Assembly (NCBI RefSeq): GCF_016903815.1 | Contig: NZ_CP069973.1 | Source: Escherichia coli | GTDB taxonomy: Bacteria > Pseudomonadota > Gammaproteobacteria > Enterobacterales > Enterobacteriaceae | Length of the DNA stretch: 64,000 bases | Direction: 5' to 3' (one strand) | In this document: positions 1,766 to 57,394 of the stretch, piece after piece | Layout of the letters: every line of letters starts with the position of its first letter | How positions within the stretch are numbered: the first letter of the stretch is position 1 | Program-made: the position numbers and the translations under genes | Notes under the pieces: model-generated | What the model saw: only the letters and a program-made list of their open reading frames with translations | Told to the model about the DNA's origin: nothing | The model's database searches: none

Positions 1766-3255
1766 TGTTGTGCCTGGCGAATCTGTGCGCCGACATCCTG
1801 TAGGCTGGCTTCAATGCGACCTAACCAGTCGCCAGGGATAAACAGACATTTTTGCTGTTCGCTGAATAAAGCGTGTTGCTTGCGCCAGTCGCTTTCAAGC
1901 TCTTCCAGTTGTTGTTTTATTTCACCTGGCAGACCTTCAGCCGATGAACCGGGAAGTGCCAACGTACTGCCTTGTAAACTTACATCGCGTACAACAAGAT
2001 GTTGGGCGCTATCCACTTCCAGATTCAATTTCTGAGCAAAGCCGATACCGTTCAGTTTGCCGCGAATTTCACCACCTTTACTCAGCCACTGTTCCAGCGC
2101 GTTACGCTCAAAGGAGATATGAACCACTTCCATATCATGCAGTTTTAACGGTTTTTGCAGCAGCAGAGTCAGAGTGGAAGCAGTAACGTTAACAGGGAGT
2201 TGATACTGCTGACGACGGCTGAAAATGCCGCCCAGACGAATTACCGTTAAGGCTGTTTTATCGCTTTGTTGCTGCTGTAGTTGCAGGTGACGTTGCACAA
2301 TCGCGCCCAGGCGGGTCAACATCCCTTGCTGTTGCCAGGCATGACCGGTCATCAATACATCAATTTGTTGTTGTATCAAATTCAGGCTTTGCGCGTCATA
2401 CCACAGGCAATCTTTCAGCAAAATGAGATCAACCGGGGCAACAGCACTGCGACCGTTAAAAAAGGCGCTGGCCTGCAATAAGCGGATCGCTTTTTTCCAG
2501 CGACGATCCGAGACATAAGGCGCATCCGGTAATTTATCCAGTTGCTGGCGCAGCATAAAAATCAGCTCAAATACATGATCGGGCAGCGTAATTTCACCAA
2601 TCTCTTTCTGCCAGCGTTCATATTCTTCATCTGTGACCTGCAAGGAGGCAGGAACCGGATTGTCGTTTTCATCCTGTTGACTGGTCAGCATGGAGCGGAA
2701 ATTCGCTTTATCCTGCACTTTATCTAACCACAGACGAATCAGCATGCGGTCATATAACGCTTCCAGACTGCTGTCTGCTTCCGGCAGCTCGTTGGAGGCC
2801 GCCACCAGCAGGCGCATCGGGATTTTTTCTACGTGTGCACCGTTGCGGAACTGGCGCTCGTTAATGGCGGTGAGCAAGGTATTAAGAATTGCCGGGCCCG
2901 CTTTCCAGATCTCATCCAGAAAGACGATTTCTGCTTCCGGCAGGTAACCGCTGGTTAAACGTTCATAGCGCCCTTCATCTTTTAGCGCCTGAATAGAAAG
3001 GGGACCAAAAACCTCTTCCGGCGTGGAGAAGCGGGTCATCAGATATTCAAACGCGCGGGCATTCTGAAAGGCGAATTTTAAGCGCCGGGCGATCAAACTT
3101 TTGGCAATGCCTGGCGGGCCAAGGAGGAACACACTTTCACCACTTAATGCCGCTAATAAACACAAGCGGATGGCGTGGCTACGTTCATAAAGCCCCTTTT
3201 CCAACGAACTGCTCAGGCGGGAAATTCTTTCCGCTAATAAATGAGGGTGAGCCAT
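1759..3255 (-). CDS. ravA: AAA+ MoxR-family ATPase RavA
   Basis: ORF 1759..3279; Walker A motif GPPGIAKS; start placed at the internal ATG (3253..3255) giving [14 protein letters not shown], the recognised RavA N-terminus, 498 aa. Confidence 0.92.
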
Positions 3256-5387: not shown

Positions 5388-6095
5388 CACAGAAAACCCC
5401 CAGCTAGGCTGGGGGTTCCGGAAAGCTTTCAGCTTTGAGCCAGTTATTAAAACCCCTTTTGATTTGTTAAAACACCTTGCGGTCTGGCAACTGCAAGTGT
5501 CAAACAAGAAATCAAAAGGGGGTCCCAATGGGGAACGAAAAGAGCTTAGCGCACACCCGATGGAACTGTAAATATCACATAGTTTTTGCGCCAAAATACC
5601 GAAGACAGGTGTTCTACAGAGAGAAGCGTAGAGCAATAGGCAGTATTTTGAGAAAGCTGTGTGAGTGGAAAAGCGTACGGATTCTGGAAGCTGAATGCTG
5701 TGCAGATCATATCCATATGCTTGTGGAGATCCCGCCCAAAATGAGCGTATCCGGGTTTATGGGATATCTGAAAGGGAAAAGCAGTCTGATGCTTTACGAG
5801 CAGTTTGGTGATTTGAAATTCAAATACAGGAACAGGGAGTTCTGGTGCAGAGGGTACTACGTCGATACAGTGGGTAAGAACACGGCGAAGATACAGGATT
5901 ACATAAAGCACCAGCTTGAAGAGGATAAAATGGGAGAGCAGTTATCGATTCCCTATCCGGGCAGCCCGTTTACGGGCCGTAAGTAACGAAGTTGGATGCA
6001 AATGTCAGATCGTGTGCGCCTGTTAGGGCGCGGCTGGTAAGAGAGCCTTATAGGCGCATTTGAAAAACCTCCGGCTATGCCGGAGGATATTTATT
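5388..6095 (+). mobile_element. IS200 insertion sequence (IS200/IS605 family, tnpA-only); boundaries approximate
   Basis: Contains a Y1/HuH transposase gene; a perfect palindrome AAAACCCCCAGCTAGGCTGGGGGTT at 5392..5416 matches the characteristic IS200 left-end hairpin; kup-rbsD spacer is about 875 bp, far longer than expected for K-12; ends set by the expected ~0.7 kb size, not by exact repeat mapping. Confidence 0.7.
5528..5986 (+). CDS. tnpA: IS200 transposase TnpA (Y1 HuH transposase)
   Basis: 152-aa product from the internal ATG (MGNEKSLAHTRWNCKYHIVFAPKYRR...HIHMLVEIPPKMSVS...); HxH motif (HIHML) present; near-identical to the Salmonella IS200 TnpA as I recall it. Confidence 0.93.
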   Translation: MGNEKSLAHTRWNCKYHIVFAPKYRRQVFYREKRRAIGSILRKLCEWKSVRILEAECCADHIHMLVEIPPKMSVSGFMGYLKGKSSLMLYEQFGDLKFKYRNREFWCRGYYVDTVGKNTAKIQDYIKHQLEEDKMGEQLSIPYPGSPFTGRK

Positions 6096-26350: not shown

Positions 26351-28201
26351 ATGCCTAAGTACCGTTCCGCCACCACCACTCATGGTCGTAATATGGCGGG
26401 TGCTCGTGCGCTGTGGCGCGCCACCGGAATGACCGACGCCGATTTCGGTAAGCCGATTATCGCGGTTGTGAACTCGTTCACCCAATTTGTACCGGGTCAC
26501 GTCCATCTGCGCGATCTCGGTAAACTGGTCGCCGAACAAATTGAAGCGGCTGGCGGCGTTGCCAAAGAGTTCAACACCATTGCGGTGGATGATGGGATTG
26601 CCATGGGCCACGGGGGGATGCTTTATTCACTGCCATCTCGCGAACTGATCGCTGATTCCGTTGAGTATATGGTCAACGCCCACTGCGCCGACGCCATGGT
26701 CTGCATCTCTAACTGCGACAAAATCACCCCGGGGATGCTGATGGCTTCCCTGCGCCTGAATATTCCGGTGATCTTTGTTTCCGGCGGCCCGATGGAGGCC
26801 GGGAAAACCAAACTGTCCGATCAGATCATCAAGCTCGATCTGGTTGATGCGATGATCCAGGGCGCAGACCCGAAAGTATCTGACTCCCAGAGCGATCAGG
26901 TTGAACGTTCCGCGTGTCCGACCTGCGGTTCCTGCTCCGGGATGTTTACCGCTAACTCAATGAACTGCCTGACCGAAGCGCTGGGCCTGTCGCTGCCGGG
27001 CAACGGCTCGCTGCTGGCAACTCACGCCGACCGTAAGCAGCTGTTCCTCAATGCCGGTAAACGCATTGTTGAATTGACCAAACGTTACTACGAGCAAAAT
27101 GACGAAAGTGCACTGCCGCGTAATATCGCCAGTAAGGCGGCGTTTGAAAACGCCATGACGCTCGATATCGCGATGGGCGGCTCTACCAACACCGTACTTC
27201 ACCTGCTGGCGGCGGCGCAGGAAGCGGAAATCGACTTCACCATGAGTGATATCGATAAGCTTTCCCGCAAGGTTCCGCAGCTGTGTAAAGTTGCGCCGAG
27301 CACCCAAAAATACCATATGGAAGATGTTCACCGGGCTGGTGGTGTTATCGGTATTCTCGGCGAGCTGGATCGCGCGGGGTTACTGAACCGTGATGTGAAA
27401 AACGTACTTGGCCTGACGTTGCCGCAAACGCTGGAACAATACGACGTTATGCTGACTCAGGATGACGCGGTAAAAAATATGTTCCGCGCCGGCCCTGCGG
27501 GTATCCGTACCACCCAGGCATTCTCGCAAGATTGCCGTTGGGATACGCTGGACGACGATCGCGCCAATGGCTGTATCCGCTCGCTGGAACACGCCTATAG
27601 CAAAGACGGCGGCCTTGCGGTGCTGTACGGTAATTTCGCAGAAAACGGCTGCATCGTTAAAACCGCGGGCGTCGATGACAGCATCCTCAAATTCACCGGT
27701 CCGGCGAAAGTGTACGAAAGCCAGGACGACGCGGTAGAAGCGATTCTCGGCGGCAAAGTTGTCGCTGGCGATGTGGTGGTGATCCGTTACGAAGGCCCGA
27801 AAGGCGGCCCCGGCATGCAGGAAATGCTCTACCCAACCAGCTTCCTGAAATCAATGGGGCTCGGTAAAGCCTGCGCGCTGATCACCGACGGACGCTTCTC
27901 CGGCGGCACCTCTGGTCTTTCCATCGGCCACGTCTCGCCGGAAGCGGCAAGCGGCGGTAGCATTGGCCTGATTGAAGACGGCGACCTGATCGCTATCGAC
28001 ATTCCGAACCGTGGCATTCAGTTACAGGTAAGCGATGCCGAACTGGCGGCGCGTCGTGAAGCGCAGGAAGCTCGTGGCGACAAAGCCTGGACGCCGAAAA
28101 ACCGTGAACGCCAGGTTTCCTTTGCGCTGCGTGCCTACGCCAGCCTGGCAACCAGCGCCGACAAAGGCGCGGTGCGCGATAAATCGAAACTGGGGGGTTA
28201 A
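26351..28201 (+). CDS. ilvD: dihydroxy-acid dehydratase
   Basis: 616-aa ORF; Fe-S cluster cysteine motif (CPTCGSCSG). Confidence 0.96.
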
Positions 28202-33405: not shown

Positions 33406-35427
33406 ATGCGTCTAAACCCCGGCCAACAACAAGCTGTCGAATTCGTTACCGGCCCCTGCCTGGTGCTGGCAGGCGCGGGTTCCGGTAAAACTCGTGTCAT
33501 CACCAATAAAATCGCCCATCTGATCCGCGGTTGCGGTTATCAGGCGCGACATATCGCGGCGGTGACCTTTACCAATAAGGCGGCGCGCGAGATGAAAGAG
33601 CGTGTCGGGCAGACGTTGGGTCGCAAAGAGGCGCGTGGGCTGATGATCTCCACCTTCCACACACTGGGGCTGGATATCATCAAACGCGAGTATGCGGCGC
33701 TTGGGATGAAAGCAAACTTCTCGTTGTTTGACGATACCGATCAGCTTGCTTTGCTTAAAGAGCTGACCGAGGGGCTGATTGAAGATGACAAAGTTCTCCT
33801 GCAACAGCTGATTTCGACCATCTCTAACTGGAAGAACGATCTCAAAACACCGTCCCAGGCGGCAGCCAGTGCGATTGGCGAGCGGGACCGTATTTTTGCC
33901 CATTGTTATGGGCTGTATGATGCACACCTGAAAGCCTGTAACGTTCTCGACTTCGATGATCTGATTTTATTGCCGACGTTGCTGCTGCAACGCAATGAAG
34001 AAGTCCGCGAGCGCTGGCAGAACAAAATTCGCTACCTGCTGGTGGATGAGTATCAGGACACCAACACCAGCCAGTATGAACTGGTGAAACTGCTGGTGGG
34101 CAGCCGCGCGCGCTTTACCGTAGTTGGCGATGACGACCAGTCGATCTACTCCTGGCGCGGTGCACGTCCGCAAAACCTGGTGCTGCTGAGTCAGGATTTC
34201 CCGGCACTGAAGGTGATTAAGCTTGAGCAGAACTACCGCTCTTCCGGACGTATTCTGAAAGCGGCGAACATCCTCATTGCCAATAACCCGCACGTCTTTG
34301 AAAAGCGTCTGTTCTCCGAACTGGGCTATGGCGCGGAGCTAAAAGTTTTAAGCGCGAATAACGAAGAACATGAAGCCGAGAGAGTCACCGGCGAGCTGAT
34401 CGCGCATCACTTCGTCAATAAAACGCAGTACAAAGATTACGCCATTCTTTATCGCGGTAACCATCAGTCGCGGGTGTTTGAAAAATTCCTGATGCAAAAC
34501 CGCATCCCGTACAAAATTTCTGGTGGTACGTCGTTTTTCTCTCGTCCTGAAATCAAGGATTTGCTGGCTTATCTGCGCGTGCTGACTAACCCGGACGATG
34601 ACAGCGCATTTCTGCGTATTGTTAACACGCCGAAGCGAGAGATTGGCCCGGCTACGCTGAAAAAGCTGGGTGAGTGGGCGATGACGCGCAATAAAAGCAT
34701 GTTTACCGCCAGCTTTGATATGGGCCTGAGTCAGACGCTTAGCGGACGTGGTTATGAAGCATTGACCCGCTTCACTCATTGGTTGGCAGAAATCCAGCGT
34801 CTGGCGGAGCGGGAGCCGATTGCCGCGGTACGCGATCTGATCCACGGCATGGATTATGAATCCTGGCTGTACGAAACATCGCCCAGCCCGAAAGCCGCCG
34901 AAATGCGCATGAAGAACGTCAACCAACTGTTTAGCTGGATGACGGAGATGCTGGAAGGTAGCGAACTGGATGAGCCGATGACGCTCACCCAGGTGGTGAC
35001 GCGCTTTACTCTGCGCGACATGATGGAGCGCGGCGAGAGTGATGAAGAGTTAGATCAGGTACAACTGATGACTCTGCACGCGTCGAAAGGGCTGGAGTTT
35101 CCTTATGTCTACATGGTCGGTATGGAAGAAGGGTTTTTGCCGCACCAGAGCAGTATCGATGAAGATAATATCGATGAGGAGCGGCGGCTGGCCTATGTCG
35201 GCATTACCCGCGCCCAGAAGGAATTGACCTTTACGCTGTGTAAAGAACGCCGTCAGTACGGCGAACTGGTGCGCCCGGAGCCGAGCCGCTTTTTGCTGGA
35301 GCTGCCGCAGGATGATCTGATTTGGGAACAGGAGCGCAAAGTGGTCAGCGCCGAAGAACGGATGCAGAAAGGGCAAAGCCATCTGGCGAATCTGAAAGCG
35401 ATGATGGCGGCAAAACGAGGGAAATAA
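33406..35427 (+). CDS. rep: ATP-dependent DNA helicase Rep (SF1)
   Basis: ORF 33391..35427; start at the ATG giving [31 protein letters not shown] (673 aa); UvrD/Rep motifs. Confidence 0.96.
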
Positions 35428-35432
35428 TCAAG

Positions 35433-35464
35433 GCCGGAAAAGATGCGTCAGCATCGCATCCGGC
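35433..35464. repeat. REP-like palindromic hairpin between convergent rep and gppA
   Basis: GCCGGAAAAGATGCGTCAGCATCGCATCCGGC imperfect dyad. Confidence 0.6.
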
Positions 35465-35473
35465 ACTTACTCA

Positions 35474-36958
35474 TTAATGCACTTCCAGCGGCCAGTGGAC
35501 ATAGCTCTGCCACTGGCTTTCCTGAGCAATAATCTCTTTACCCAGCGGATGTTGGGTTAGCCAACCTTGCGGAAGCGTCAAGGTCAACAGTTCATGGTTA
35601 GCCTGTAATGTCATCTCTGGCACGAGATCGTCACGGCGACGGCTGGCAAAAATGATGGCCAGGCGTAGTAAACGGCAGAGTTGTTCTGCGACGCGCGGCG
35701 GTACGGCATTTTGCTGATGCAGCGATGAGAGATCGACCGGATTCGTCTGGTTGAGCAGTAGCGTCGCCAGCAGTTTTTTCTGTGCGGGGGTAAAACCGGG
35801 AAGATCCAGATTACGTACCAGATAAGCAGCGTGTTGCGGCGCTTGTTTGAAGTCAACGCTCAGGCCGATTTCATGAAGCTGGCAGGCGCTGATGAGCAAA
35901 TCGCGGCTTATTGCTTCAAGATGCCATTCGTTTTTCACCTGATCGAAGAAGTTAGCCGCAACTTTGGCTACGCGCTGTGCCTGATCAATATCGATCATAA
36001 AGCGGCGCTGAATATTACGCAGCGTACGGCTGCGAATATCCTGCTCGACGGTCAGATGCAACATGCCGTAGACCAGGCCTTCACGCAGCGCACCACCCGC
36101 CAGGGTCATACACTGAATATTCAGTTCGGTAAAAATGGCTATCAGGATTGCCAGACCACTCGGGAACACTAACGCACGTTCCAGCGTCAGCCCGTCAATC
36201 TCCAGTTCCTCCAGCCGACCGCAATGAATGGCTCGCTGTTTCAGTTGCTGCAACTTTTCCAGGGTAATGCGTTCATCCATCCCCTGTGCCATCATGATTT
36301 CCTGTAACGCCTGCACGGTGCCGGAAGCGCCAACGCACACTTTCCAGCCGTGATACCGTAATTCATCGGCAACCGGACGTAACACTTCGCGTGCCGCTTT
36401 TTCTGCAGCATCAAAATTTTCCTGCCCCAGATTACGATCGGCAAAATAGCGTTCCAGCCAGGTGACACAGCCCATCGACAGGCTGAACAACGAGGTGGTT
36501 TGTGCACCCGTGCCGGTTACCAGTTCAGTACTGGCACCGCCTATATCCACCACCAGGCGCTGATCGGCACCGCCAGTTGTGTGAGCAACGCCCTGATAAA
36601 TCAGACGTGCTTCCTCTTCACCGCTGATCACCTGTACCGGACAACCGAGGATTTCCTGTGCTTTGGCAATAAAATCACCCGCATTGACGGCAAGTCGTAA
36701 TGTCGCCGTAGCGACAACGCGAATTTGCGAGGGAGGGATATCTTGCAGACGTTCAGCAAACAGGCGCAGACATTGCCAACCGCGCTCCATTGCTTCATTA
36801 GAGAGGGCATTTTCGCTATTCAGGCCAGCAGCCAGACGCACTTTGCGTTTAATTCGCGTCAGCGTCTGGATGCTTCCAGCCACCTCGCGCACAACCAGCA
36901 TATGAAAACTATTCGAACCGAGATCAATGGCTGCATACAGCGACGAGGTGGAACCCAT
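35474..36958 (-). CDS. gppA: guanosine pentaphosphate phosphohydrolase / exopolyphosphatase
   Basis: ORF 35474..36967; start at the ATG giving [22 protein letters not shown] (494 aa); Ppx/GppA family. Confidence 0.94.
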
Positions 36959-37093
36959 ACTCTTCATCCTTCAATCTGTCTCTGTGTTGGCTGCATTCTT
37001 TCACCTGAATCACTTACTACAGTAAGCTCATCGGGGTTCATTCTCTGGCCATCTTGATACAGTTTGAATGATTTTGAGTATGACATTTTTTAT

Positions 37094-38359: not shown

Positions 38360-38489
38360 AGTGTGGTAGAATATCAGCTTACTATTGCTTTACGAAAGCG
38401 TATCCGGTGAAATAAAGTCAACCTTTAGTTGGTTAATGTTACACCAACAACGAAACCAACACGCCAGGCTTATTCCTGTGGAGTTATAT

Positions 38490-38819
38490 ATGAGCGATAA
38501 AATTATTCACCTGACTGACGACAGTTTTGACACGGATGTACTCAAAGCGGACGGGGCGATCCTCGTCGATTTCTGGGCAGAGTGGTGCGGTCCGTGCAAA
38601 ATGATCGCCCCGATTCTGGATGAAATCGCTGACGAATATCAGGGCAAACTGACCGTTGCAAAACTGAACATCGATCAAAACCCTGGCACTGCGCCGAAAT
38701 ATGGCATCCGTGGTATCCCGACTCTGCTGCTGTTCAAAAACGGTGAAGTGGCGGCAACCAAAGTGGGCGCACTGTCTAAAGGTCAGTTGAAAGAGTTCCT
38801 CGACGCTAACCTGGCGTAA
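38490..38819 (+). CDS. trxA: thioredoxin 1
   Basis: ORF 38385..38819; start at the ATG giving [38 protein letters not shown] (109 aa); WCGPC active site. Confidence 0.97.
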
Positions 38820-53187: not shown

Positions 53188-53264
<77 letters not shown>

Positions 53265-53321
53265 TTTAGTCCCGGCGCTTGAGCTGCGGTGGTAGTAATA
53301 CCGCGTAACAAGATTTGTAGT

Positions 53322-53398
53322 GGTGGCTATAGCTCAGTTGGTAGAGCCCTGGATTGTGATTCCAGTTGTCGTGGGTTCGAATCCCATTAGCCACCCCA
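53322..53398 (+). tRNA. hisR: tRNA-His (with extra 5' G-1)
   Basis: GGTGGCTATAGCTCAGTTGGTAGAGCCCTGGATTGTGATTCCAGTTGTCGTGGGTTCGAATCCCATTAGCCACCCCA; anticodon GTG. Confidence 0.97.
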
Positions 53399-53418
53399 TT
53401 ATTAGAAGTTGTGACAAT

Positions 53419-53505
53419 GCGAAGGTGGCGGAATTGGTAGACGCGCTAGCTTCAGGTGTTAGTGTCCTTACGGACGTGGGGGTTCAAGTCCCCCCCCTCG
53501 CACCA
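53419..53505 (+). tRNA. leuT: tRNA-Leu (long variable arm)
   Basis: GCGAAGGTGGCGGAATTGGTAGACGCGCTAGCTTCAGGTGTTAGTGTCCTTACGGACGTGGGGGTTCAAGTCCCCCCCCTCGCACCA; anticodon CAG. Confidence 0.97.
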
Positions 53506-53547
53506 CGACTTTAAAGAATTGAACTAAAAATTCAAAAAGCAGTATTT

Positions 53548-53624
53548 CGGCGAGTAGCGCAGCTTGGTAGCGCAACTGGTTTGGGACCAGTGGGTCGGAG
53601 GTTCGAATCCTCTCTCGCCGACCA
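53548..53624 (+). tRNA. proM: tRNA-Pro
   Basis: CGGCGAGTAGCGCAGCTTGGTAGCGCAACTGGTTTGGGACCAGTGGGTCGGAGGTTCGAATCCTCTCTCGCCGACCA; anticodon TGG. Confidence 0.97.
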
Positions 53625-53770: not shown

Positions 53771-55006
53771 ATGCTGCAACAGGTTCCAACGCGTGCTTTT
53801 CATGTGATGGCGAAACCGAGCGGTTCCGATTGTAATCTGAACTGTGACTACTGTTTTTATCTCGAAAAACAATCCCTTTACCGCGAAAAGCCAGTCACGC
53901 ATATGGACGATGACACGCTGGAAGCGTATGTCCGTCACTATATCGCTGCCAGCGAAACCCAAAACGAAGTGGCTTTTACCTGGCAGGGCGGCGAACCAAC
54001 GTTACTCGGGCTGGATTTTTACCGCCGAGCCGTGGCGCTACAGGCGAAATATGGTGCTGGCAGGAAGATAAGTAACAGCTTCCAGACTAACGGCGTTCTG
54101 CTTGATGACGAATGGTGTGCATTTCTGGCAGAAAATCATTTTCTTGTTGGGTTATCGCTGGATGGTCCGGCTGAGATCCATAATCAATATCGCGTGACCA
54201 AAGGCGGCAGACCAACGCATAAGCTGGTGATGCGTGCCCTGACGCTCCTGCAAAAACATCATGTCGACTATAACGTGCTGGTCTGCGTAAATCGCACCAG
54301 TGCGTTACAACCTTTGCAAATCTATGATTTTCTGTGTGATGCAGGCGTTGAGTTTATCCAGTTTATTCCTGTGGTCGAACGCCTGGCTGATGAAACGGCT
54401 GTTCATGCTGGACTTAAGCTACATGGTCCCGGCGATATTCAGGGCGAACTGACGGAATGGTCGGTACACCCCGAGGAGTTCGGTGAATTTTTGGTGGCGA
54501 TATTCGACCACTGGATCAAACGCGACGTCGGCAAGATTTTCGTGATGAATATCGAATGGGCGTTTGCCAATTTTGTCGGTGCGCCAGGAGCGGTTTGCCA
54601 TCATCAGCCAACCTGTGGGCGCTCGGTGATTGTTGAACACAACGGCGACGTTTACGCCTGCGATCACTATGTTTATCCGCAATATCGACTGGGGAATATG
54701 CTTCAGCAGACAATTGCAGAAATGGTAGATTCCCCGCAACAGCAGGTGTTTGGTGAAGATAAATTTAAGCAGTTACCGGCGCAGTGTCGCAGTTGTAATG
54801 TGTTAAAAGCGTGCTGGGGAGGCTGTCCGAAACACCGCTTTATGCTCGATGCCAGCGGCAAACCGGGACTGAATTATTTGTGTGCCGGGTATCAGCGTTA
54901 TTTCCGCCATCTACCGCCATATCTAAAAGCAATGGCTGATTTGCTGGCGCACGGTCGTCCGGCCAGCGACATTATGCAGGCGCATTTGATGGTGGTGAAT
55001 AAGTAA
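53771..55006 (+). CDS. aslB: anaerobic sulfatase-maturating enzyme homologue (radical SAM/SPASM)
   Basis: ORF 53741..55006; start at ATG 53771 giving MLQQVPTRAFHVMAKPSGSDCNLNCDYCFY (CxxxCxxC radical-SAM motif); 411 aa. Confidence 0.93.
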   Translation: MLQQVPTRAFHVMAKPSGSDCNLNCDYCFYLEKQSLYREKPVTHMDDDTLEAYVRHYIAASETQNEVAFTWQGGEPTLLGLDFYRRAVALQAKYGAGRKISNSFQTNGVLLDDEWCAFLAENHFLVGLSLDGPAEIHNQYRVTKGGRPTHKLVMRALTLLQKHHVDYNVLVCVNRTSALQPLQIYDFLCDAGVEFIQFIPVVERLADETAVHAGLKLHGPGDIQGELTEWSVHPEEFGEFLVAIFDHWIKRDVGKIFVMNIEWAFANFVGAPGAVCHHQPTCGRSVIVEHNGDVYACDHYVYPQYRLGNMLQQTIAEMVDSPQQQVFGEDKFKQLPAQCRSCNVLKACWGGCPKHRFMLDASGKPGLNYLCAGYQRYFRHLPPYLKAMADLLAHGRPASDIMQAHLMVVNK

Positions 55007-55041
55007 AAAAGCGGCCATTTTGTGGCCGCCTGCGGTTGATT

Positions 55042-55071
55042 GCCGGATAAGGCGTTCACGCCGCATCCGGC
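55042..55071. repeat. REP (repetitive extragenic palindromic) element
   Basis: GCCGGATAAGGCGTTCACGCCGCATCCGGC, the canonical E. coli REP palindromic unit, between convergent aslB and aslA. Confidence 0.85.
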
Positions 55072-55107
55072 AAGGTCAGTGTGGCCCGATGTAGCGATAG
55101 CGCCGGC

Positions 55108-56763
55108 TTAATCAGATTTAATCTGCGCGCGTGGTGGATATTTTTTCAGGATCTCCATATACGCGTGCATTTCGGTCTGTAGCGGTACACCCATTGGGAT
55201 ATGGCGCACGCCGATAGAGTCGCTTTCCTGCGGATCGGTGTACAGGTTAAACACCGACGATCCCGCCGTTTGCATTACTGTGCCGGTGAATCCACCCTGA
55301 TACCCGCTCTGGGTATACGCGTACGGTTGCTGGATCAGTACGTGATACTTGAACTCATCCATACGCACAGCAGCGAGTTTACCGTTGAGGAAGTAGTGCT
55401 CGGCCTTACGGTTAGACTGACCATTTGTTCCCAGGAAGAAAGATGTCTGGTCCACACCATCGATAAAGGTGGTTTTCGGTACTAAATTCGCTACTTTCGC
55501 CCCAGGATGCCCCGCCAGATCCAGTGCCGTAGGGAAGAGATCCGCCAGATCGACAATGCCGTCAGATTTACGCGGTTGGATCATGCCTTTCCAGTAAACG
55601 AAGGTTGGCACACGAACGCCGCCTTCCCATGTAGAACCTTTCGCACCGCGGAACGGCGTGCGACCGTGCGGCGGAACTTCGGCTTCCGGACCGTTATCAG
55701 AGGTGAACACAATCAGCGTGTTATCAAGCTGACCGTTTTTCTCCAGTGCTTTATACAGATTGGCGAAGATATCGTTCATCTCCACCATGCAGTCGCCGTA
55801 AGAGGTGCGCGCCGGAGAGCTACCCGCATATTTCGCATTTGGGTAGTTATCGAAGTGACAGCCGCGAGTGCCGTAGTAGAGGAAGAAAGGCTTATCGCTC
55901 TTCGCCATCTTGTCGAGGAACTTAACGCCATATTCCATCCAGCGTTGATCCAGGTCTTCCATATATTTCGGCGTAATGTCGGCAATGGCTTCCTGTTCAC
56001 CGCCGCGCACGGCATGAACGTCATCTTTGCTGAACGGCAGTTTTTGGATGTATTGAGAACGATCCGGGCTCAGGGCGACTTCCGGGTTGACGTGAACATC
56101 ACGCCATTCGGTATACATATCGGATACCGAGTTAAAGCCGCGGAAATCATCAAAGCCAACGTTCTGCGGCTGCGACTCTTTGTTTTCCCCCATATGCCAT
56201 TTCCCGATGGCCTGAGTGACGTAGCCCTGATCGTGCAGCAACTGCGGCAGAGTGGTTAACCCTTGCAGACCGCCCGGTTGCCCGTACATTGGCGGCATCA
56301 GAATGCCGTGGTGGATGGAGTATTGTCCGGTAAGAATCGTGGCGCGGGTTGGGGAAGAACTCGGTTGAGAATACGCCGAAGTTAAAATCAGCCCCTGGCT
56401 GGCAACGGCGTCGATATCTGGTGTAGGGTTACCCACCGCCACGCCGCCGCCGTTAAAGCCAACATCCATCCAGCCCACATCATCCAGCAAGAAAACAACC
56501 ACGTTCGGTTTCTTACCGGTTTTTTTCTCAAGTTCTGCCAGCTTCTGCTGGGTTTCTTTGTCTTGTGCAGGATGCTGCATCACCGGCATCATGTTGTCGG
56601 CAATAGTGGTCGCCGGTTTAACCAGATACTGGTTTGGGTGATCGTATCCGGCAAAGCCTTTGCGTGCGGTGGCGGTTGACGGGGTATCTGCTGCGTTGGC
56701 CATGAGTGGAAGAGCGGCGGCGACAGCCACAACAAGAAGTTTGGGTGAAAACGAAAATTCCAT
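55108..56763 (-). CDS. aslA: arylsulfatase-like protein
   Basis: 551-aa ORF with signal peptide and the sulfatase-family region near the N-terminus. Confidence 0.93.
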
Positions 56764-57187: not shown

Positions 57188-57394
57188 GTAGATGCTCATT
57201 CCATCTCTTATGTTCGCCTTAGAGCCTCATAAACTCCGGAATGACGCAGAGCCGTTTACGGTGCTTATCGTCCACTGACAGATGTCGCTTATGCCTCATC
57301 AGACACCATGGACACAACGTTGAGTGAAGCACCCACTTGTTGTCATACAGACCTGTTTTAACGCCTGCTCCGTAATAAGAGCAGGCGTTTTTTT
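57188..57394 (+). ncRNA. glmZ: GlmZ small regulatory RNA
   Basis: Sequence GTAGATGCTCATTCCATCTCTTATGTTCGCC...ends in hairpin ACGCCTGCTC...GAGCAGGCGT plus T-run; recognised as GlmZ; lies between aslA and hemY as in K-12. Confidence 0.9.

What the first reader, a model, noticed from the sequence alone, without database searches (positions are those of the whole stretch)
35433..35464. REP-type palindromes at convergent gene junctions
GCCGGA...TCCGGC-type palindromic units occur between rep and gppA (35433..35464) and between aslB and aslA (55042..55071, canonical REP). These are typical of E. coli core intergenic regions and may act as mRNA 3'-stabilisers or gyrase/IHF sites; noted for completeness.
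Basis: partly seen in the sequence, partly recalled or inferred. Interest (0 to 1): 0.1.

Follow-up and report, generated by a model that had tools for sequence, protein, structure and literature searches.

The report
Two ordinary single REP elements
Both palindromes are genuine copies of E. coli's well-known REP repeat, each sitting alone between two convergent genes, so the finding is correct but ordinary.

Summary
Confirmed and ordinary. The window is E. coli chromosome. Both palindromes lie exactly where stated, between rep/gppA and between aslB/aslA.

I trained a covariance model on 35 REPs from 300 kb of K-12 DNA outside this locus. It finds exactly two REPs in the 64 kb:
- Site 2 (55037-55072): 46 bits, E 5e-10. 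It matches the y-type palindrome 30/30.
- Site 1 (35428-35465): 27 bits, E 5.5e-5. It is a divergent z2-length variant, and a y-only model misses it.

Both are single REPs, not BIMEs. Both lack the conserved GTAG, and no IHF consensus is nearby. The gyrase/IHF suggestion is therefore unsupported. A transcript 3'-end hairpin is the best functional reading, but it is inferred.

Site 1 is present in 5417 of 5426 complete genomes, and orthologous REPs occupy the same spot in Escherichia albertii, Citrobacter and Enterobacter. In one strain the REP-specific IS1397 has inserted into its loop. It lies 5 and 9 nt from the two stop codons.

Site 2's allele occurs in only 642 genomes. K-12 carries a two-REP BIME at that position.

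Nothing here is new in kind.

The parts
35428..35465 (-). REP site 1, a single REP. The core palindrome is 35433-35464 and the predicted loop is GUCA at 35447-35450. On the - strand it reads TGCCGGATGCGATGCTGACGCATCTTTTCCGGCCTTGA. It has a y-type head (GCCGGAT) and a z2-length body. The tail is CTTG instead of CTAC, which on the + strand reads CAAG instead of GTAG.
   Evidence: CM R1 27.0 bits, E 5.5e-5, full length. z2-type HMM E 9.8e-6. The y-only HMM gives no hit. Fold -21.6/-21.3 kcal/mol, z -5.9/-4.3. IS1397 is inserted in the loop in strain JNE25-005.
35425..35427 (+). rep stop codon (TAA). The REP core starts 5 nt downstream.
35474..35476 (-). gppA stop codon (TAA on the - strand). The REP core starts 9 nt downstream on that strand.
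55037..55072 (-). REP site 2, a single y-type REP. The core palindrome is 55042-55071. On the - strand it reads TGCCGGATGCGGCGTGAACGCCTTATCCGGCAATCA, with tail AATC instead of CTAC.
   Evidence: CM R1 46.1 bits, E 5.2e-10. y HMM E 7.5e-11. 30/30 to the published consensus palindrome. Fold -22.8/-23.8 kcal/mol, z -5.0/-5.4.
55003..55031 (-). Intrinsic-terminator-like hairpin (55009-55031) followed by a T6 run. It lies downstream of the REP for aslA transcription and overlaps the aslB stop codon (55004-55006).
   Evidence: fold. Absent from K-12 and BL21 because of a 9-bp indel.
55108..55110 (-). aslA stop codon, 35 nt from the REP. The aslB stop at 55004-55006 is also 35 nt from the REP core.

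Best explanation
Both features are single copies of the E. coli REP (palindromic unit) repeat family.

Site 2 is a y-type REP. Site 1 is an old, diverged REP with a y-type head and a z2-length body.

They are best read as immobilised relics of the REP/RAYT selfish-repeat system. They lodged in the one kind of spacer where insertion does little harm, the 3' ends of convergent genes. Both lack the GTAG that the TnpA(REP) enzyme needs, and neither has an inverted partner REP.

Because each REP is palindromic, it folds into a hairpin of about -22 kcal/mol in the transcripts of both flanking genes. The most likely activity (inferred, not shown) is to act as a barrier to 3'->5' exonucleases. Such a barrier sets and protects the steady-state 3' end after read-through or Rho-dependent termination.

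Site 1 lies 5 nt from the rep stop codon and 9 nt from the gppA stop codon. It therefore also meets the published positional rule (15 nt or less) for REPs that stall terminating ribosomes and lower translation. Site 2, at 35 nt from both stops, does not.

What is shown: identity, structure potential, genomic context, conservation, and recognition by IS1397. What is inferred: any effect on RNA stability or translation, and the loss of mobility.
For: Family membership:
- Models trained only on K-12 DNA outside this locus (35 REPs) hit both sites full-length and nothing else in the window.
- The 40-nt site-1 sequence has a median of 18 BLAST places per E. coli genome. The site-2 query has a median of 14.
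- The REP-specific insertion sequence IS1397 sits in the site-1 loop in strain JNE25-005, with a 4-bp GTCA duplication. Its REP specificity is documented in PMC1525189.

Structure:
- Stable hairpins form on both strands.
- Across 15 orthologous junction REPs the outer stem is 97% paired, and 3 of its 7 pairs change on both sides.

Context:
- 10 of 18 REP-bearing spacers in the training DNA are also convergent junctions.
- No intrinsic terminator is called at site 1.

Age and conservation:
- Site 1 is in 5417 of 5426 genomes.
- REPs with the same orientation occupy the same junction in E. albertii, Citrobacter, Enterobacter and Lelliottia.

Mechanism from the literature:
- REP hairpins resist exonucleases and mark the 3' ends of Rho-terminated transcripts (PMC6061677).
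- REPs within 15 nt of a stop codon stall ribosomes (Liang et al. 2015, as quoted in PMC12306157).
- GTAG and the stem mismatch are required for TnpA(REP) binding and cleavage (PMC3333891).
Against: - No transcript, half-life or protein data for rep, gppA, aslB or aslA were available, so the functional part is inference.
- Several Enterobacteriaceae have only 1-8 nt between rep and gppA and no hairpin at all. A hairpin at this junction is therefore dispensable.
- Site 2 is replaced by other REP arrangements in most E. coli genomes, which argues against strong selection on that copy.
- Some natural site-1 variants break a stem pair, for example G35463A.
- Both copies lack GTAG, a highly conserved family feature. 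So do 6 of the 35 independent training REPs.
Confidence: 0.88

Rival explanations
1. The REPs are neutral selfish-DNA relics with no effect on the flanking genes. They persist only because the spacers between convergent genes tolerate them.
For: - Site 2's locus is highly polymorphic: single REP, BIME, deletion hybrid, and aslA-truncated alleles.
- Relatives with 1-8 nt rep-gppA spacers have no hairpin.
- GTAG is lost at both sites.
Against: - Site 1 is kept in 99.8% of E. coli genomes, 4238 of them at 99% identity or more.
- A REP in the same orientation is kept at the junction across several genera, with paired-stem covariation.
- The literature shows that transcribed REPs do affect decay and translation.
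Confidence: 0.35
2. They are DNA-level sites for DNA gyrase and/or IHF that organise the nucleoid.
For: REPs bind gyrase in vitro, and gyrase cleavage favours y-type REPs. Site 2 is y-type (PMC6379681).
Against: - Published enrichment is for BIME-2 arrays of y and z2 REPs, and the IHF site lies in the BIME-1 L linker.
- The window has one REP per locus.
- There is no WATCARNNNNTTR match within 40-45 bp of either site.
Confidence: 0.07
3. They are ordinary bidirectional intrinsic terminators that only resemble REPs.
For: - Both sit at convergent gene ends.
- Serratia species have a GC hairpin flanked by A/T runs at the rep-gppA junction.
- The - strand tail after site 1 (CUUGAUUAUUU) is moderately U-rich.
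Against: - The terminator scan calls nothing at site 1.
- At site 2 it calls only a separate neighbouring hairpin, not the REP.
- Both sites match the REP family model over its full length and belong to multi-copy families.
Confidence: 0.05

Closest known systems
E. coli REP / palindromic units (y, z1, z2 types; Stern 1984, Gilson/Bachellier; reviewed in PMC3333891)
   Same: - A 30-40 nt imperfect palindrome, extragenic and multi-copy.
- Site 2 equals the y consensus palindrome 30/30.
- Site 1 aligns without gaps to z2 REPs, with a compensatory C-G to U-A pair change.
   Different: - Both lack the conserved GTAG/CTAC tetranucleotide (CAAG and GATT).
- Both are single occurrences, a minority class: 84 of 584 in K-12 according to PMC3333891.
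- Site 1 mixes a y head with a z2-length body and has TTTTC instead of TTATC, which opens one A-U pair.
BIME-1 / BIME-2 mosaic elements
   Same: Built from the same REP units. K-12, BL21 and 2229 genomes carry a two-REP BIME, with an L-like linker, at the aslB-aslA position.
   Different: The window strain has one REP at each locus. It has no inverted partner, no linker and no IHF motif.
REPIN/RAYT (TnpA-REP) mobile doublets
   Same: The REP sequence family is the one associated with TnpA(REP).
   Different: There is no doublet and no GTAG, which is required for TnpA(REP) binding and cleavage. The two copies are therefore predicted to be immobile.
Stop-codon-proximal REPs that down-regulate translation (Liang, Rudd & Deutscher 2015, as quoted in PMC12306157)
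   Same: Site 1 is 5 nt from the rep stop and 9 nt from the gppA stop, within the 15-nt rule for both.
   Different: The effect on Rep or GppA was not measured. Site 2 is 35 nt from both stops and falls outside the rule.

Membership tests
E. coli REP (palindromic unit) repeat family | Imperfect palindrome of 30-40 nt able to form a stem-loop | tested here: met
   Arms of 14 nt (79%) and 16 nt (88%). MFE -21 to -24 kcal/mol on both strands, z -4.3 to -5.9.
E. coli REP (palindromic unit) repeat family | Sequence and structure match to the family consensus, judged by a model built from independent REPs | tested here: met
   CM R1, built from 35 K-12 REPs outside the locus, gives site 2 46.1 bits (E 5e-10) and site 1 27.0 bits (E 5.5e-5). 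HMMs: site 2 E 7.5e-11 (y model) and site 1 E 9.8e-6 (z2 model). Site 1 fails the y-only model.
E. coli REP (palindromic unit) repeat family | Many copies per genome | tested here: met
   Median of 18 places per genome for the 40-nt site-1 query. Median of 14 for the site-2 query.
E. coli REP (palindromic unit) repeat family | Extragenic location | tested here: met
   Both lie wholly between annotated stop codons.
E. coli REP (palindromic unit) repeat family | Used as a target by the REP-specific insertion sequence IS1397 | tested here: met
   For site 1 only: IS1397 sits in the loop with a GTCA duplication in NZ_AP045057.1. Specificity is documented in PMC1525189. Not observed for site 2.
TnpA(REP)/RAYT-competent REP or REPIN | Conserved GTAG 5' of the palindrome foot (CTAC on the other strand) | tested here: not met
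   Site 1 has CAAG and site 2 has GATT. Of the 35 training REPs, 29 have CTAC and 6 do not. GTAG is required for TnpA(REP) binding and cleavage.
TnpA(REP)/RAYT-competent REP or REPIN | Inverted partner REP (doublet) | tested here: not met
   Only one CM hit per locus in the window.
BIME-1 (IHF-binding RIP/RIB element) | y plus z1 REPs in inverse orientation, joined by the L linker that carries an IHF site | tested here: not met
   Single REPs. No IHF consensus near either site.
BIME-2 (gyrase-associated) | Tandem y/z2 REP pairs with short linkers | tested here: not met
   Single REPs. Gyrase enrichment is reported for BIME-2.
Intrinsic (Rho-independent) terminator | GC-rich stem directly followed by a U run | tested here: not met
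   No call at site 1. At site 2 the call is for a separate hairpin at 55009-55031 plus T6, not the REP.
Translation-attenuating stop-proximal REP (Liang 2015) | REP begins 15 nt or less after the stop codon | tested here: met
   Site 1 is 5 nt from the rep stop and 9 nt from the gppA stop. Site 2 is 35 nt from both stops, so the feature is not met there.
Translation-attenuating stop-proximal REP (Liang 2015) | Ribosome stalling, tmRNA tagging, or reduced protein output | not testable with these tools
   Needs experiments. The primary paper is not in the held library.

The most novel reading that the evidence does not exclude
One REP hairpin serves both convergent mRNAs at once. It protects the 3' ends of rep and of a possible rhlB-gppA transcript, for which no terminator or promoter consensus separates rhlB from gppA. 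Being within 15 nt of both stop codons, it also dampens translation of both Rep and GppA.

RhlB is the degradosome helicase needed to clear REP-stabilised decay intermediates (reference title listed). A REP at the end of an rhlB-gppA message could therefore give RhlB negative feedback on its own operon.

Retention of a same-orientation REP at this junction from Escherichia to Enterobacter would then reflect selection rather than inertia.
Probability: 0.08. Interest if true: 0.35.

Novelty: already known. Interest (0 to 1): 0.07.

Why it matters
It matters little for discovery, because REPs are among the longest-known bacterial repeats.

The practical value is for annotation:
- The window holds exactly two REPs, both single and both lacking GTAG.
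- The gyrase/IHF reading should not be attached to them.
- Site 1 is a fixed, ancient landmark within 15 nt of two stop codons.
- Site 2 marks a spacer where REP content turns over between strains. That makes it useful as a strain marker and as an example of BIME polymorphism.

Tried and rejected
- **Rfam scan of the whole window.** No family hit at either site. This is uninformative, because I know of no curated E. coli REP family in Rfam.
- **Loose GCC[GT]GA..TC[AC]GGC skeleton.** It also hit 2987-3022 and 26754-26785. Neither is palindromic or matched by the CM, so both were rejected as chance.
- **Local alignment to the published y consensus alone.** Site 1 scored 36 against a random maximum of 34, and the y-only HMM missed it. 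A y-only view would wrongly reject site 1. Seeding on the z2 type resolved this.
- **Literature.** The Liang 2015 paper and its follow-up are not in the held library. The four held supplements of PMC12306157 do not mention these genes. PMC6061677 and PMC3333891 have no supplements held as text. One literature search on the species specificity of palindromic units returned nothing useful.
- **IHF consensus search.** It found no match, even in the K-12 BIME linker. My recollection that this linker is an IHF-binding L motif is therefore unverified.
- **RefSeq K-12 annotation tables.** They list no repeat features, so prior annotation of these two REPs could not be confirmed with the tools. That EcoCyc and GenBank U00096 annotate REPs is from memory.

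Full report
**What is there.**
The window is E. coli chromosome. A 901-nt stretch around site 1 is 100% identical to several complete genomes, where it is annotated rep / gppA. The region around site 2 is annotated aslB / aslA. The K-12 equivalents are b3778/b3779 and b3800/b3801.

- Site 1, 35433-35464, reads GCCGGAAAAGATGCGTCAGCATCGCATCCGGC. It lies in a 46-nt spacer between the rep stop (35425-35427, + strand) and the gppA stop (35474-35476, - strand).
- Site 2, 55042-55071, reads GCCGGATAAGGCGTTCACGCCGCATCCGGC. It lies in a 101-nt spacer between the aslB stop (55004-55006) and the aslA stop (55108-55110).

**Is it more than chance?**
- The arms are 14 nt (79% complementary) and 16 nt (88%).
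- All four strands fold at -21.3 to -23.8 kcal/mol, with z-scores of -4.3 to -5.9 against dinucleotide shuffles.
Two of those hits are not REPs, so the skeleton alone is not a sufficient test.

**The consensus-model test.**
To keep it independent, I fetched six 50-kb K-12 regions far from this locus. I collected REPs from them by iterative nhmmer, seeded in two ways:
- with the published consensus GCCGGATGCGGCGTGAACGCCTTATCCGGCCTACGA (quoted in PMC12306157);
- with the classical malE-malF z-type REP.

This gave 35 REPs of the y, z1 and z2 types, aligned. A covariance model with 12 base pairs was built from them.

Run over the whole window without filters, the model gives site 2 46.1 bits (E 5.2e-10) and site 1 27.0 bits (E 5.5e-5). 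Both matches are full-length and on the - strand. The only other hit below E 0.4 is the opposite strand of site 2 (E 0.052).

The window therefore holds exactly two REPs at two loci. The training DNA has 18 REP-bearing loci per 300 kb, about 3.8 per 64 kb, so two is unremarkable.

**Subtype.**
Site 2 matches the y palindrome 30/30 (y HMM E 7.5e-11).

Site 1 is not found by the y-only HMM. It matches the z2-type HMM over its full length (E 9.8e-6). On the - strand it aligns without gaps to z2 REPs:
- site 1: TGCCGGATGCGATGCTGACGCATCTTTTCCGGCCTTGA
- z2: TGCCTGATGCGACGCTGACGCGTCTTATCAGGCCTACA

Compared with z2, site 1 has the y-type G/C at the fifth pair and a compensatory C-G to U-A change in the inner stem. 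It also has TTATC changed to TTTTC, which opens one A-U pair, and a degenerate tail.

Its 40-nt sequence finds a median of 18 places per E. coli genome, so it belongs to a multi-copy family.

**Features it lacks.**
PMC3333891 defines E. coli REPs as 30-40 nt imperfect palindromes with a highly conserved GTAG 5' of the foot. That paper shows GTAG and the stem mismatch are required for TnpA(REP) binding and cleavage.

Neither site has GTAG: site 1 has CAAG and site 2 has GATT. Six of my 35 training REPs also lack an exact CTAC. This does not exclude the two sites from the repeat family, but it predicts they are not TnpA(REP) substrates.

Each is also a single REP, a class that PMC3333891 puts at 84 of 584 in K-12. 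Neither is a BIME.

IHF binding belongs to the BIME-1 L linker, and gyrase enrichment belongs to BIME-2 arrays (PMC6379681). No IHF consensus lies near either site.

**Independent biological recognition.**
In strain JNE25-005 an IS1397 is inserted inside the site-1 REP.
- Left junction: ...GGCCGGAAAAGATGCGTCA|TGAACTGAACC...
- Right junction...GGGGTGCAGTTCA|GTCAGCATCGCATCCGGCA

The 4-bp duplication GTCA is exactly the predicted hairpin loop. IS1397 is documented to insert specifically into E. coli REPs (PMC1525189).

**Conservation of site 1.**
- It is present full-length in 5417 of 5426 complete genomes, 4238 of them at 99% identity or more. It is identical in K-12.
- Sampled variants are a wobble-preserving C35446T, two changes in the A-rich internal loop, and one pair-breaking G35463A.

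A scan of species-representative genomes, anchored on the Rep C-terminus, shows the rep -> <- gppA arrangement across Enterobacterales.
- A REP sits at the same junction in E. albertii, an outlying 'E. coli' lineage, several Citrobacter, Kluyvera, Pseudocitrobacter, Enterobacter, Lelliottia and Pseudescherichia.
- Eight of these hit the E. coli-trained model, all with the canonical strand antisense to rep, as in the window.
- Each carries its own lineage's REP flavour, for example GCCGGGT...ACCCGGC in Enterobacter. The outer stem is 97% paired, and 3 of its 7 pairs change on both sides.
- That REPs are species-specific in sequence is an old observation (Gilson et al. 1987). This citation is from memory and was not verified here.
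- Cedecea, Shimwellia, Pluralibacter and some Klebsiella and Enterobacter have only 1-8 nt between the two genes. Serratia has a plain GC hairpin instead. A REP at this junction is therefore old and persistent, but not indispensable.

**Conservation of site 2.**
The opposite holds here. The window's allele, tested with a 49-nt probe covering the REP right arm plus the flank, occurs in 642 of 5426 genomes.

K-12, BL21 and others carry a BIME at this position. It consists of:
- a y REP in the opposite orientation, at the same left junction;
- a 32-nt linker;
- a second REP.

This arrangement covers at least 80% of a 106-nt probe in 2229 genomes. Another allele (L009) looks like a deletion between the GATGCG repeats of the two REPs. 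In strain M3 aslA is truncated.

BIME polymorphism between E. coli strains is already described (PMC3333891).

**How it most likely works.**
Shown here: family identity, hairpin potential on both strands, position at convergent 3' ends, and conservation. Ten of the 18 training REP loci are also at convergent junctions.

Inferred from the literature:
- Transcribed REPs resist 3' exonucleases and mark the steady-state ends of Rho-terminated transcripts (PMC6061677).
- REPs within 15 nt of a stop codon stall ribosomes and lower translation (Liang 2015, as quoted).

Site 1 has no intrinsic terminator and is 5 and 9 nt from the two stops. It is therefore a candidate for both effects on both genes.

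Site 2 is 35 nt from both stops. On the aslA strand it is followed by a separate hairpin plus T6 terminator (55009-55031) that K-12 lacks. The REP is thus probably internal to the aslA 3' UTR and a possible 3' barrier for aslB.

I put identity as REPs at about 0.97, any measurable RNA-level effect at about 0.5-0.6, and a gyrase/IHF role below 0.1.

**Verdict.**
This is already-known biology of low interest.

Noticed in passing
window 55004-55110; L002 4192-4355; L009-L014: The aslB-aslA spacer is a REP turnover site. The window strain has one y REP. K-12, BL21 and others have a y REP in the opposite orientation at the same left junction, plus a linker and a second REP. L009 has a hybrid palindrome consistent with a deletion between GATGCG repeats of the two REPs. 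The window allele is in 642 of 5426 genomes, and the K-12-type arrangement is in about 2229.
   Followed up: partly
window 55003-55031 (- strand): A hairpin plus T6 intrinsic-terminator-like site overlaps the aslB stop codon and lies downstream of aslA. A 9-bp indel removes it in K-12, BL21 and TUM9812. It is present in the window, L009, L010, L012 and L014.
   Followed up: partly
L139 90-230 and L140 100-251 (NZ_AP045057.1); window 35447-35450: IS1397 is inserted in the loop of the rep-gppA REP in E. coli JNE25-005, with a 4-bp GTCA target duplication.
   Followed up: yes
window 35440-35465; L002 4300-4325 (K-12 3,984,299-3,984,324): The rep-gppA REP and the second REP of the K-12 aslB-aslA BIME lie 21.6 kb apart and share an identical 26-nt core, AAGATGCGTCAGCATCGCATCCGGCA. 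The 19-mer core was found nowhere else in the 300 kb of K-12 DNA examined. This may reflect gene conversion or copying between nearby REPs.
   Followed up: partly
L015-L134 (rep-gppA junction in other genera): The same junction carries lineage-specific REP variants in the same orientation in Citrobacter, Enterobacter, Lelliottia, Pseudescherichia and Pseudocitrobacter (two REPs in the last). Serratia has a plain GC hairpin. Cedecea, Shimwellia and Pluralibacter have only 1-8 nt.
   Followed up: partly
L070 1843-1963 ('E. coli' SCPM-O-B-8794): This outlying Escherichia lineage has a 116-nt rep-gppA spacer with a near-perfect palindrome, GCCGGATGCGTTAGCATCGCATCCGGC, and an extra upstream GCCGGAT-containing segment.
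   Followed up: no
L012 (strain M3) and L013 (strain TUM9812): aslA is truncated in strain M3 and annotated as frameshifted in TUM9812, which suggests aslA decays in some lineages.
   Followed up: no
window 36968-37093: No terminator-like or sigma-70-like site is found between rhlB and gppA, so the two may be co-transcribed and end at the REP. RhlB is the degradosome helicase implicated in clearing REP-stabilised decay intermediates.
   Followed up: partly
L008 40156-40193 (K-12 4,240,156-4,240,193): A single REP lies between the divergently annotated yjbT and psiE. It is the only one of the 18 training REP loci that is not downstream of a gene.
   Followed up: no
window 23122-23411, 5395-5518, 38420-38519, 57188-57394, 14679-19901: Rfam gathering-level hits elsewhere in the window: Rev39 5' UTR, STnc490, TrxA thermometer, GlmZ, an rRNA operon with StyR-44 and tRNAs, and a four-tRNA cluster at 53188-53621.
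   Followed up: no
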